A stretch of DNA of 64,000 bases from Escherichia coli O157:H7 (GTDB taxonomy: Bacteria > Pseudomonadota > Gammaproteobacteria > Enterobacterales > Enterobacteriaceae), in NCBI RefSeq assembly GCF_013167455.1, contig NZ_CP038328.1; one strand, given 5' to 3'. Position 1 is the first letter of the stretch. Each line of letters opens with the position of its first letter. The translations under genes and the position numbers were made by a program. This document shows positions 2,569 through 17,347 of this stretch, piece after piece. The notes beneath the pieces are model-generated. The model had not been told where the DNA came from and ran no database searches. It was given only the letters and a program-made list of their open reading frames with translations.

Positions 2569-2757
2569 ATGTCTACTCAACTTGATCCCACCCAGCTGGC
2601 CATTGAATTTTTACGCCGTGACCAGAGCAATCTTTCACCTGCCCAATATCTTAAACGTCTGAAACAACTAGAACTTGAATTTGCTGACCTGCTTACTCTC
2701 TCTTCTGCTGAATTAAAAGAAGAAATCTACTTTGCCTGGCGTCTGGGCGTGCATTGA
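2569..2757 (+). CDS. ydiH: Small uncharacterised protein YdiH (62 aa)
   Basis: ATG at 2569 preceded by aggatg; 62 codons to TGA; 89-aa track ORF is an upstream extension; synteny. Confidence 0.55.
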   Translation: MSTQLDPTQLAIEFLRRDQSNLSPAQYLKRLKQLELEFADLLTLSSAELKEEIYFAWRLGVH

Positions 2758-2982
2758 TCCTGACTTAATGCCGCAAGTTCGCCAAATCGACCTGGATTAA
2801 CCTCCGTCCAGGTTCGATGACCTTCTTAATACTGCTTATCTACCCGCCTGATATTGTTCAAAAATAATACTAATCGCAGTTTGTGTTAAAACGGCGGCTT
2901 AGCTTTATGAGATTATTCTTATCGTCCCTTCAAGAGCTAAGCCACTGAGAGTGCCGGAGATAAGCGCCGGATGGGGTAGAAA

Positions 2983-3020
2983 CCCTTAAGCCTGTGTCGC
3001 ACAGACTTAAGGGTTTTCTT
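2983..3020 (+). terminator. Rho-independent terminator hairpin (possibly 3' end of sRNA RydB)
   Basis: Near-perfect inverted repeat cccttaagcctgtg / cacagacttaaggg followed by ttttcttatttc on + strand, about 225 nt past ydiH stop. Confidence 0.5.
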
Positions 3021-3099
3021 ATTTCTGAACGCTGCACTTTTTTACCTATCTCTTAAATAGTCATTTTCAATACAACTTTTTCTTTTTCATCACAGCCTT

Positions 3100-3305
3100 A
3101 ATGCTCCTTAGATAATAATCATTATCTAACAATGAGATACCTAATTCTTAGCGTGCCTGTTAACCCACACATCAGGGTCTATGCTTATTAAAAGCAGGCA
3201 AAAAGCATGTTTTACGGTAAAGCCCCTGCCTTTGCTGGGTTGAACTGATAATCATTATCACTAACATGCTGTTATACGCTGAAAGCGATGAAGTGAGGTA
3301 AATCG
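3100..3305 (+). promoter_or_regulatory. sufA promoter/operator region with two Fur-box-like motifs
   Basis: gataataatcattatct at 3111-3127 and gataatcattatcactaac at 3247-3265, both resembling Fur consensus GATAATGATAATCATTATC; the second lies about 45-60 nt upstream of sufA ATG. Confidence 0.5.
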
Positions 3306-3674
3306 ATGGACATGCATTCAGGAACCTTTAATCCACAGGATTTCGCCTGGCAAGGCTTAACGCTGACACCCGCAGCCGCTGTCCACATCCGCGAGCTGGT
3401 GGCAAAGCAGCCGGGTATGGTCGGCGTGCGCTTAGGTGTGAAGCAAACGGGCTGCGCGGGCTTTGGCTATGTGCTCGACAGTGTTAGCGAGCCGGACAAA
3501 GACGATCTGCTGTTTGAACACGACGGCGCGAAGCTGTTTGTCCCGCTGCAAGCGATGCCGTTTATTGATGGCACGGAAGTCGATTTCGTTCGTGAAGGAC
3601 TTAATCAGATATTCAAATTTCACAACCCTAAAGCCCAGAATGAATGTGGCTGTGGCGAAAGCTTTGGGGTATAG
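3306..3674 (+). CDS. sufA: Fe-S cluster A-type carrier SufA
   Basis: 122-aa ORF with C-terminal CGCGESF motif; first gene of suf operon. Confidence 0.9.
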
Positions 3675-12759: not shown

Positions 12760-12999
12760 CCATTCAGGATGAGGCGATAAGCTTCATCCTGATATTCTTG
12801 CTTCAGTTGCGGTCCAGTTAATCATTCTAAATAACAACTGCTGAAATTATACGAATTTCGATATGTGTTTTAATTTGTAACGATAATATTATTTTTATTT
12901 TCTGCAATGACCGTCACAAATAATTGTCGCTTAAGTTAAATTCATTTCAAATGATAATAAATATCAGTTCACTTATAATTTCTTGCTTTGTAATTTTAA

Positions 13000-13013
13000 T
13001 TGATAATGATCAA
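13000..13013. promoter_or_regulatory. FNR-box (TTGAT-N4-ATCAA) upstream of ydhY
   Basis: ttgataatgatcaa, a perfect match to the FNR/CRP-family half-sites with FNR spacing, in the AT-rich region before ydhY. Confidence 0.5.
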
Positions 13014-16678: not shown

Positions 16679-17347
16679 ATGTCCTTCACTCGACGCAAAT
16701 TTGTTCTGGGGATGGGAACAGTAATCTTTTTTACTGGTTCTGCGTCTTCTCTGTTAGCGAACACGAGGCAAGAAAAGGAAGTTCGGTATGCCATGATTCA
16801 TGACGAGTCACGGTGCAATGGCTGTAATATTTGCGCCCGCGCATGCCGTAAAACTAACCACGCCCCCGCTCAGGGAAGCCGTTTATCGATAGCACACATT
16901 CCAGTCACCGATAACGACAACGAAACGCAGTATCACTTTTTTCGCCAGTCATGTCAGCACTGCGAAGATGCTCCGTGCATCGACGTATGCCCGACAGGGG
17001 CGTCGTGGCGTGATGAGCAGGGGATCGTGCGGGTAGAAAAATCGCAGTGCATCGGCTGCAGTTATTGCATTGGCGCTTGTCCGTACCAGGTTCGCTACCT
17101 TAACCCTGTCACTAAAGTGGCAGATAAATGTGATTTCTGCGCTGAGTCCCGACTGGCAAAAGGCTTTCCGCCCATTTGCGTCAGCGCTTGCCCGGAACAC
17201 GCATTGATCTTTGGTCGCGAAGATAGCCCTGAAATTCAGGCGTGGTTGCAGGATAATAAATACTATCAATATCAGCTACCTGGTGCCGGGAAACCGCATC
17301 TGTATCGCCGGTTCGGTCAACATTTGATTAAAAAGGAAAATGTATGA
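16679..17347 (+). CDS. ydhX: Tat-exported 4Fe-4S ferredoxin-like protein YdhX (222 aa)
   Basis: Start MSFTRRKFVLGMG with twin-arginine motif; four Cys clusters. Confidence 0.8.
   Translation: MSFTRRKFVLGMGTVIFFTGSASSLLANTRQEKEVRYAMIHDESRCNGCNICARACRKTNHAPAQGSRLSIAHIPVTDNDNETQYHFFRQSCQHCEDAPCIDVCPTGASWRDEQGIVRVEKSQCIGCSYCIGACPYQVRYLNPVTKVADKCDFCAESRLAKGFPPICVSACPEHALIFGREDSPEIQAWLQDNKYYQYQLPGAGKPHLYRRFGQHLIKKENV

What the first reader, a model, noticed from the sequence alone, without database searches (positions are those of the whole stretch)
3100..3305. Two near-identical Fur-box-like motifs about 135 nt apart upstream of sufA
gataataatcattatct (3111-3127) and gataatcattatcactaac (3247-3265) share the AATCATTATC core of the Fur consensus. 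The proximal one is positioned to overlap the sufA core promoter, consistent with Fur repression of suf. The distal copy could be a second Fur site or overlap IHF/OxyR/IscR sites known for this promoter; the duplication is noteworthy either way.
Basis: partly seen in the sequence, partly recalled or inferred. Interest (0 to 1): 0.35.

Follow-up and report, generated by a model that had tools for sequence, protein, structure and literature searches.

The report
Known Fur box plus Fur-like IHF flank
Upstream of the E. coli O157:H7 sufA gene, the promoter-proximal motif is the well-known iron-repressor (Fur) operator, and the second, similar motif 133 bp upstream is a weaker Fur-like palindrome lying on the edge of the known IHF site, so this is an ordinary promoter with one small untested extra.

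Summary
They share an exact 12-mer (ATAATCATTATC, 3115-3126 and 3248-3259), the only direct repeat in the region.

I rebuilt the Chen et al. 2007 Fur weight matrix from 20 K-12 sites, and it reproduces their published scores.
- The proximal site scores 21.0 bits, the best in the 64 kb window. It is the established Fur operator, filling the -35/-10 spacer of the sufA promoter, and is present in all 80 Enterobacteriaceae examined.
- The distal site scores 15.5 bits, third in the window (P about 0.002-0.004 by chance).

The distal site is not a duplicated operator. It lies on the 5' flank of a positionally fixed IHF core (3127-3139).
- Its Fur-like left half exists only in Escherichia (7/7 score 11.2-15.5 bits; 75 other genomes have a median of 3.2).
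- Its substitutions hit Fur-critical positions.
- E. coli is polymorphic at 3119: T in 36% of genomes and the weaker K-12 C in 60%.

The distal site most likely binds Fur weakly, with little or no selected role. A real Fur/IHF antagonism remains possible (about 0.3).

The parts
2924..2984 (+). rydB small RNA gene, upstream neighbour; not part of the promoter
   Evidence: Rfam RF00118, 77.9 bits, E 3e-18; annotated in K-12
3049..3083 (.). Conserved OxyR-type block cTATCnnnnAAATAGnnATTnnCnATaCAtnTTT. It also holds the best NsrR-consensus match of the region (3056-3078) and a 12.0-bit Fur-PWM hit centred at 3062.
   Evidence: Alignment of 31 genera; PWM; NsrR consensus scan, 5 mismatches of 22 at the same position in all genera. 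The OxyR footprint -236..-196 (= 3038-3078) is from my memory of Lee et al. 2004. The far-upstream OxyR site and the IHF requirement are stated in PMC8593673.
3108..3129 (.). Distal Fur-like element: perfect palindrome TTAGATAAT-AATC-ATTATCTAA. The Fur 19-mer is 3111-3129 (centre 3120, -154 from the TSS), 15.5 bits, with a second walker at 3117 (9.0 bits).
   Evidence: chance estimates
3119..3119 (.). Polymorphic base inside the distal element: T here (15.5 bits), C in K-12 (13.0), G in one E. coli representative (11.8).
   Evidence: The exact T-type 80-mer is in 1977 of 5419 E. coli genomes and the C-type in 3249. T is found in E. albertii, E. whittamii and an Escherichia clade.
3127..3139 (+). 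IHF core TAACAATGAGATA (2 mismatches to WATCAANNNNTTR), centre -141
   Evidence: Exactly 50 bp upstream of the invariant block in 81 of 82 sequences. Perfect consensus in 45 of 75 non-Escherichia genomes and 1 mismatch in 24. The IHF footprint -156..-126 (= 3118-3148) is from my memory of Lee et al. 2004.
3172..3195 (.). Invariant block cAGGGTCTATGCTTAaTAAAAG of unknown function (-102..-79)
   Evidence: no conserved RNA structure
3215..3240 (.). IscR type-2 activator site AAAGCCCCTGCcTTTGCTGGGTTGAA
   Evidence: Read. The positions -56..-51 and -50C of the IscR-site mutants (PMC12594620) fall here when the TSS is 3274. The motif itself is from memory (Giel 2006 / Nesbit 2009).
3240..3245 (+). 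-35 hexamer TTGAAC of the sufA promoter
   Evidence: Reading with the TSS fixed
3244..3262 (.). Proximal Fur operator: 19-mer ACTGATAATCATTATCACT, 21.0 bits, centre 3253 (-21). Its core TGATAATCATTATCA (3246-3260) is a perfect 7-1-7 palindrome.
   Evidence: Chen et al. 2007 Table 4 (21.3 bits, -53 from the ATG); -26ATA-24 = 3248-3250; a site of 18.5 bits or more in all 80 related loci
3262..3267 (+). -10 hexamer TAACAT
   Evidence: Reading; CTAACAT is nearly invariant in the alignment
3274..3274 (+). sufA transcription start, 32 nt before the ATG
   Evidence: Inferred: the only numbering that makes -26ATA-24 and -50C of PMC12594620 fit the sequence
3306..3674 (+). sufA coding sequence

Best explanation
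Proximal motif: this is the established Fur operator of the sufABCDSE promoter. It is a perfect 7-1-7 palindrome that fills the 16-bp spacer between -35 and -10 (-28..-14). Iron-loaded Fur bound there excludes RNA polymerase, and the site lies next to the IscR activator site. Distal motif: this is not a copy of the operator. It is a Fur-like palindrome at -166..-145, lying on the upstream A/T-rich flank of the IHF site through which the far-upstream OxyR site activates suf. Its right half (CATTAT...) is the flank conserved together with the IHF core in all Enterobacteriaceae. Its left half (GATAAT) arose in the Escherichia lineage. At 13-15.5 bits it is as good as Fur sites that are footprinted in vitro, so Fur probably can occupy it at higher Fur activity and would then clash with IHF. 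The way it varies shows no detectable selection for Fur binding. I therefore read it as a low-affinity, largely incidental Fur-binding sequence, with Fur control of suf exerted essentially through the proximal operator. Shown: sequence, scores, positions, conservation. Inferred: Fur occupancy, the clash with IHF, and the lack of a role.
For: A PWM rebuilt from 20 K-12 sites reproduces published Ri values (sufA 21.0 vs 21.3, ydhY 20.1 vs 19.9, fur 12.3 vs 12.3, tonB 11.4 vs 11.5). The distal site scores 15.5 bits (K-12 allele 13.0). That exceeds the 10-bit cutoff and the proven fur and tonB sites, and matches the fhuF2 region (14.6 bits), which is weakly protected at 50 nM Fur. It shows the typical strong-plus-weak walker pair 3 bp apart. 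The proximal site is present in all 80 related loci. The IHF core keeps a fixed 50-bp spacing and is a perfect consensus in 45 of 75 other genomes; Fur score on its flank is 11.2-15.5 in 7 of 7 Escherichia against a median of 3.2 elsewhere. Among 7 Escherichia, 4 of the 19 positions vary (21%, equal to the 19% regional average). Three of these are core Fur positions (T6, T9, C16) and every change lowers the score. By contrast 0 of 19 positions vary in the proximal box. The derived, weaker C allele is in 60% of E. coli genomes. [quoted passage not shown]
Against: The Fur-likeness is improbable by chance: P = 0.002 in shuffles, and the left half alone has P = 0.001. Only 1 of 75 orthologous IHF flanks reaches 13 bits. 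All seven Escherichia keep at least 11 bits, while the adjacent spacers vary at 48% and 28% of positions. Among 12 other K-12 Fur regions, the only well-separated secondary site of 13 bits or more (fhuF2) is a real Fur-protected region. These points favour a selected site. No binding data for this element were available to me.
Confidence: 0.45

Rival explanations
1. The distal element is a selected, auxiliary Fur operator of Escherichia. Fe-Fur bound at -163..-145 competes with IHF (core -147..-135). This prevents the IHF bend that brings OxyR to the promoter, so iron-replete cells damp OxyR-dependent suf induction in addition to blocking the core promoter. The T/C/G polymorphism would tune this effect between lineages (strong in O157:H7 and B2 strains, weaker in K-12).
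For: The same PWM and chance statistics apply. The site is retained at 11.2 bits or more in 7 of 7 Escherichia species while the flanking spacers diverge. It is a perfect 9-4-9 palindrome, which suits a dimeric protein rather than IHF. It physically overlaps the IHF core and footprint. There is a precedent: a second, lower-affinity Fur region in the OxyR- and Fur-regulated fhuF promoter. In Escherichia the IHF core is weakened (2 mismatches), which would make competition effective.
Against: It is not conserved outside Escherichia, although Fur, IHF and OxyR control of suf is. Substitutions fall on Fur-critical positions at the neutral proportion. The weaker derived allele is the majority in E. 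coli. It is redundant with the proximal operator, which already blocks RNA polymerase. The centres are 133 bp apart (about 12.7 helical turns), so they are not phased for simple Fur-Fur looping. It is not mentioned in any paper I could read.
Confidence: 0.3
2. The distal element is only IHF-site DNA. In the cell it is occupied by IHF or otherwise unavailable, Fur does not bind it appreciably, and the resemblance to a Fur box is a coincidence of A/T-rich regulatory sequence.
For: The right half is the conserved IHF flank. Conserved non-Fur sites in this same region also give Fur-PWM hits: 12.0 bits inside the OxyR block, and 8-12 bits at that position in many genera. One unrelated genome reaches 16.8 bits on its IHF core. 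Chen et al. note that Fur sites cluster tightly on promoter elements, which this one does not.
Against: In Chen et al., oligos carrying predicted sites shifted with 150 nM Fur, and only the 1.4-bit and -5-bit controls bound extremely weakly or not at all. A 14.6-bit site is footprinted. The Escherichia IHF core is itself a 2-mismatch site, so strong IHF exclusion of Fur is not assured.
Confidence: 0.2
3. The distal box is the operator of a second, upstream promoter, or the relic of a duplicated promoter core. Two readings are possible: -35 ATCACA 3089-3094 / -10 GATAAT 3111-3116; or a Fur box in a 16-bp spacer followed by TAACAA, mirroring the proximal TTGAAC-Fur box-TAACAT.
For: The promoter scan lists ATCACA-16-GATAAT with 9 of 12 matches. 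The gapped similarity ATAATCATTAT(CA)CTAACA to the proximal box plus -10 is significant.
Against: Two promoter-like hits in the region against 1.0 +/- 1.0 expected. The -35 lies in the most variable spacer, and E. albertii has GATAAG. TAACAA lacks the essential final T and has a 2/6 -35. No collinear similarity exists elsewhere between the two 133-bp units. In other genera the same DNA is a perfect IHF core.
Confidence: 0.05

Closest known systems
Fur operator of the E. coli sufABCDSE promoter (Patzer & Hantke 1999; Outten et al. 2004; Lee et al. 2008; Chen et al. 2007 Table 4)
   Same: The proximal motif is this site. It has the same position (-53 from the ATG, -21 from the TSS), the same sequence as K-12, and 21.0 vs 21.3 bits.
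   Different: Nothing differs for the proximal site. The distal motif is not part of that described cluster, which has 3 walkers over 31 bp.
IHF site (ORE-II) of the sufA promoter, required for OxyR activation (Lee et al. 2004; Outten et al. 2004)
   Same: The distal box overlaps it. The IHF core at 3127-3139 is centred at -141, in the middle of the remembered -156..-126 footprint. It is positionally fixed and matches the consensus perfectly in most genera. The IHF requirement is stated in PMC8593673.
   Different: The left arm of the distal palindrome (3108-3116) lies outside the IHF core and footprint. It is specific to Escherichia, where the IHF core itself is degenerate.
Two-region Fur binding at the fhuF promoter (fhuF1 22.3 bits, fhuF2 14.6 bits; Chen et al. 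2007)
   Same: Both have a strong site plus a separate weaker site of about 14-15 bits in a promoter also controlled by OxyR. The weaker fhuF region is protected by Fur in vitro. My PWM gives 23.4 and 13.6 bits for these sites.
   Different: At fhuF the regions are about 65 bp apart and both have footprints. At sufA the sites are 133 bp apart, the weak one overlaps an IHF site, and no binding data were available.

Membership tests
E. coli Fur binding site (Fur box) | Match to the 19-bp 9-1-9 information model at or above the weakest proven site (about 10 bits) | tested here: met
   Proximal 21.0 bits; distal 15.5 bits (K-12 allele 13.0). The PWM was rebuilt from 20 sites and reproduces published Ri values.
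E. coli Fur binding site (Fur box) | Overlapping secondary walkers 3 or 6 bp away (cluster behaviour) | tested here: met
   Proximal: 5.3 bits at +6. Distal: 9.0 bits at -3. This is the strong-plus-weak pattern described by Chen et al..
E. coli Fur binding site (Fur box) | Overlap with core promoter elements (the usual repressor geometry) | tested here: not met
   This applies to the distal site only. It lies at -163..-145 from the sufA TSS, and the only promoter-like match there is 9/12 at chance frequency. The proximal site meets this feature, since it fills the spacer between -35 and -10.
E. coli Fur binding site (Fur box) | Conservation in orthologous promoters | tested here: not met
   This applies to the distal site. 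Scores are 11.2-15.5 bits in 7 of 7 Escherichia, but the median is 3.2 in 75 other Enterobacteriaceae, with 6 at 10 bits or more and 1 at 13 or more. The proximal site scores 18.5 bits or more in 80 of 80.
E. coli Fur binding site (Fur box) | Protection or enrichment by Fur (footprint, EMSA, ChIP-exo) and a fur-dependent effect of mutating it | not testable with these tools
   For the proximal site, the -26ATA-24 to TAT mutation is used as a Fur-blind promoter (PMC12594620). For the distal site no data were found. The primary papers and ChIP tables are not held.
IHF binding site | Core WATCAANNNNTTR | tested here: inconclusive
   The window has TAACAATGAGATA at 3127-3139, with 2 mismatches. 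The orthologous position has 0 mismatches in 45 of 75 other genomes and 1 in 24.
IHF binding site | A/T-rich tract 5' of the core | tested here: met
   A conserved aAAtnCATTAT lies immediately 5' of the core in most genera. This is the right half of the distal box.
IHF binding site | IHF protection and an IHF-dependent function | not testable with these tools
   PMC8593673 and the RegulonDB-derived regulator list state that OxyR activation of suf needs IHF. The footprint coordinates come only from my memory of Lee et al. 2004.

The most novel reading that the evidence does not exclude
In the genus Escherichia the IHF site of the suf promoter has acquired an overlapping, functional low-affinity Fur operator. 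Iron status would then gate OxyR/IHF-dependent activation through Fur-IHF competition. A common T/C polymorphism at the operator centre (36% vs 60% of E. coli genomes, 2.5 bits) would give O157:H7/B2-type and K-12-type strains different coupling of iron and peroxide signals.
Probability: 0.3. Interest if true: 0.45.

Novelty: new member of a known kind. Interest (0 to 1): 0.25.

Why it matters
suf is the stress-time Fe-S cluster assembly system, and its promoter is a textbook case of signal integration by Fur, IscR, OxyR, IHF and NsrR. If the distal element were a working Fur site, it would add a direct iron input to the peroxide arm of that circuit. It would also mean that K-12, in which all the footprints were made, carries the weaker allele compared with O157:H7 and many pathogenic lineages. 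If it is not a working site, which I think slightly more likely, the case is a useful caution. A site can pass a well-validated PWM threshold at P of about 0.002 next to a true operator and still show no sign of selection.

Tried and rejected
- **Primary literature:** Lee 2008 (PMC2593202), Mettert & Kiley 2014 (PMC4248859) and 2015 (PMC7487215), Seo 2014 (tried as PMC4167408) and Patzer & Hantke 1999 (PMC93794) are not held. Supplements of Beauchene 2015, Chen 2007 and the Fur pan-regulon preprint are not held either. The IHF and OxyR footprint coordinates therefore rest on memory, cross-checked by the conserved blocks.
- **True duplication:** rejected. No collinear similarity exists outside the 12-mer plus CTAACA.
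- **Upstream promoter at the distal box:** rejected as weak and not conserved.
- **RNA element:** only rydB is found by Rfam, and the conserved upstream block has no consensus structure.
- **NsrR as the binder of the invariant block:** rejected. The best NsrR-like match lies in the OxyR block instead.
- **Link between IHF-core decay and Fur-likeness:** none. Six other genomes with 2-mismatch IHF cores score -4 to 8.3 bits.
- **Simple consensus counting** (19-mer and 7-1-7) was done first and agrees with the PWM.

Full report
**Locus**

The window is E. coli O157:H7; a 701-bp stretch (2700-3400) spanning the finding is 100% identical to several O157:H7 chromosomes. The finding lies in the ydiH-rydB-sufA intergenic region, with ydiJ, menI, ydiH, rydB and sufABCDSE all on the + strand. 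sufA starts at 3306. rydB (Rfam, 77.9 bits) is at 2924-2984.

**The observation**

Both strings are at the stated coordinates. They share the exact 12-mer ATAATCATTATC at 3115-3126 and 3248-3259, 133 bp apart. This is the only direct repeat of 9 nt or more between 2990 and 3310. A gapped alignment adds CTAACA, and nothing else is shared. The distal element is also a perfect palindrome, TTAGATAAT-AATC-ATTATCTAA, at 3108-3129.

No Fur matrix was supplied, so I rebuilt the 19-bp symmetric 'M9' model of Chen et al. 2007 (PMC2189734).
- I fetched 20 of its 24 K-12 sites using the coordinates in their Tables 3 and 4.
- The rebuilt matrix reproduces their published scores: sufA 21.0 vs 21.3, ydhY 20.1 vs 19.9, fur 12.3 vs 12.3, tonB 11.4 vs 11.5, gpmA 28.1 vs 27.4.
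- In the 64 kb window the top three sites are the proximal box (centre 3253, 21.0 bits), the ydhY-upstream cluster already listed by Chen et al. (centre 12959, 20.1 bits) and the distal box (centre 3120, 15.5 bits, with a 9.0-bit walker 3 bp away).
- Chen et al. used 10 bits as their genome cutoff, because the weakest proven site has 10.1 bits. The oligos carrying predicted sites in their test shifted with 150 nM Fur.
- The separate 14.6-bit fhuF2 region is weakly protected at 50 nM Fur.

The distal site is therefore not below threshold. On chance:
- 0.22% of 20000 dinucleotide shuffles of 3026-3240 reach 15.5 bits, and 0.8% reach 13 bits.
- The analytic expectation is 0.004 sites per 215 bp at 63% A+T.
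- The left half alone (GATAATAAT, 8.6 bits) has P = 0.0012.

**Promoter anatomy**

Mettert & Kiley's strain table gives two anchors: a Fur-site mutation '-26ATA-24 to TAT', and IscR-site mutations 'delta -56 to -51' and '-50C to G' (PMC12594620). These fit the sequence only if +1 is window 3274, which is 32 nt before the ATG. With that numbering:
- -35 is TTGAAC (3240-3245).
- -10 is TAACAT (3262-3267).
- The proximal box TGATAATCATTATCA (3246-3260) fills the spacer.
- The IscR type-2 site is 3215-3240.
- The distal 19-mer is at -163..-145.

Chen et al. list only the proximal cluster for sufA (3 walkers, 31 bp, -53 from the ATG). Their full list of 363 clusters, in which a 13-bit K-12 site more than 100 bp away should appear separately, was not available.

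**Comparative evidence**

I fetched 80 sufA loci from Enterobacteriaceae.
- Every one has a Fur site of 18.5 bits or more upstream of sufA, and 79 have it at the proximal position.
- An alignment of 31 genera shows five conserved blocks: an OxyR-type block, an IHF core, an invariant block (GTCTATGCTTA), the IscR site, and the Fur box plus -10.
- Anchoring on the invariant block, a WATCAANNNNTTR core lies exactly 50 bp upstream in 81 of 82 sequences. It is a perfect match in 45 of 75 non-Escherichia genomes and has one mismatch in 24. All seven Escherichia carry TAACAATGAGATA, with 2 mismatches.
- That core (3127-3139) is centred at -141, the middle of the IHF footprint I remember from Lee et al. 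2004 (-156..-126).

The distal Fur-like 19-mer is the DNA immediately 5' of this core and overlaps it by 3 bp. Its right half (CATTAT) is the A/T-rich flank conserved in most genera. Its left half is new in Escherichia. The best Fur score on that flank is 11.2-15.5 bits in 7 of 7 Escherichia. In the other 75 genomes the median is 3.2, six reach 10 bits and one reaches 13.

**Is it under selection as a Fur site?**

- Among the seven Escherichia sequences, 4 of 19 positions vary (21%). The whole 290 bp varies at 19%, the two adjacent spacers at 48% and 28%, the IHF core at 1 of 13, the OxyR region at 2 of 41, and the proximal box at 0 of 19.
- Three of the four variable positions are high-information Fur positions, and every change lowers the score. 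That is the neutral proportion.
- Within E. coli the 80-mer around the site is essentially biallelic. The T form seen here is in 1977 of 5419 genomes, and the K-12 C form (13.0 bits) is in 3249.
- T is also found in E. albertii and E. whittamii, so the weaker majority allele appears to be derived.
- The sample is small, so this argues against strong constraint but does not exclude weak constraint.

**Weighing the readings**

For a real Fur site:
- The score is improbable by chance.
- It is retained in all Escherichia.
- It has palindromic symmetry.
- Among 12 other K-12 Fur regions, the only well-separated secondary site of 13 bits or more (fhuF2) is genuinely Fur-bound.

Against a real Fur site:
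- It is lineage-restricted.
- Its substitution pattern looks neutral.
- The weaker allele is the majority.
- It is redundant with an operator that already blocks RNA polymerase.
- It is located far from any promoter element.
- The readable literature is silent on it and speaks of a single Fur box.
- Conserved non-Fur sites in this same region also score 8-12 bits.

My partition is:
- 0.45: Fur can bind weakly, but there is no selected role.
- 0.30: a functional auxiliary operator that antagonises IHF and so OxyR activation.
- 0.20: no appreciable Fur binding.
- 0.05: operator of an upstream promoter, or a relic of a duplication.

**Verdict**

The proximal site is already known. The distal site is an undescribed, PWM-positive, Escherichia-specific Fur-like element superimposed on the known IHF site. 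It is worth one EMSA but is not a surprise. Interest: 0.25.

Noticed in passing
window 3172-3195: The block cAGGGTCTATGCTTAaTAAAAG (-102..-79 from the sufA TSS) is the most conserved sequence upstream of sufA. GTCTATGCTTA is identical in 29 of 31 genera and keeps an exact 50-bp spacing to the IHF core in 81 of 82 sequences. I know of no regulator assigned to it. It is not an RNA structure and is not the best NsrR match. It could be read as a -10 (TATGCT), or as SD+ATG of a mini-ORF of variable length.
   Followed up: partly
window 3056-3078 (inside the OxyR block 3049-3083): AATAGTCATTTTCAATACAACTT is the best match to the NsrR consensus (from memory: AAGATGYATTTNAAATRCATCTT) in the whole upstream region, at the same position in all 31 genera (4-6 mismatches of 22). 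The same DNA gives a 12.0-bit Fur-PWM hit centred at 3062. The OxyR site may double as the NsrR site reported for suf.
   Followed up: partly
window 3127-3139: The IHF core upstream of sufA is a perfect WATCAANNNNTTR in most Enterobacteriaceae but carries two mismatches (TAACAATGAGATA) in all seven Escherichia examined. The genus in which IHF dependence was shown thus has the weakest-looking site.
   Followed up: partly
window 3230: The only other O157:H7 vs K-12 difference in the 300 bp upstream of sufA is C vs G at -76 from the ATG (-44 from the TSS). It lies inside the IscR type-2 site, at the G of the GTTTG element of the remembered consensus. The other six Escherichia have G.
   Followed up: no
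window 12950-12968 (centre 12959): A 20.1-bit Fur site, AATGATAATAAATATCAGT, lies between fumD (ydhZ) and ydhY, 256 bp before ydhY, with an 11.6-bit neighbour at 13008. It corresponds to the 'ydhY -255, 19.9 bits, 7 walkers' cluster predicted by Chen et al. 2007, for which they cite no experimental reference.
   Followed up: partly
window 17252-17270 (centre 17261): A 13.9-bit Fur-PWM hit, GATAATAAATACTATCAAT, lies inside the ydhX coding sequence. It is probably one of the many intragenic matches.
   Followed up: no
window 3201-3211 and 3263-3273: There is an inverted repeat AAAAGCATGTT / AACATGCTGTT (91% complementary, 51 nt apart). It brackets the IscR site and the proximal Fur box, and its 3' arm covers the -10 and runs up to the TSS. 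Its significance is unknown.
   Followed up: no
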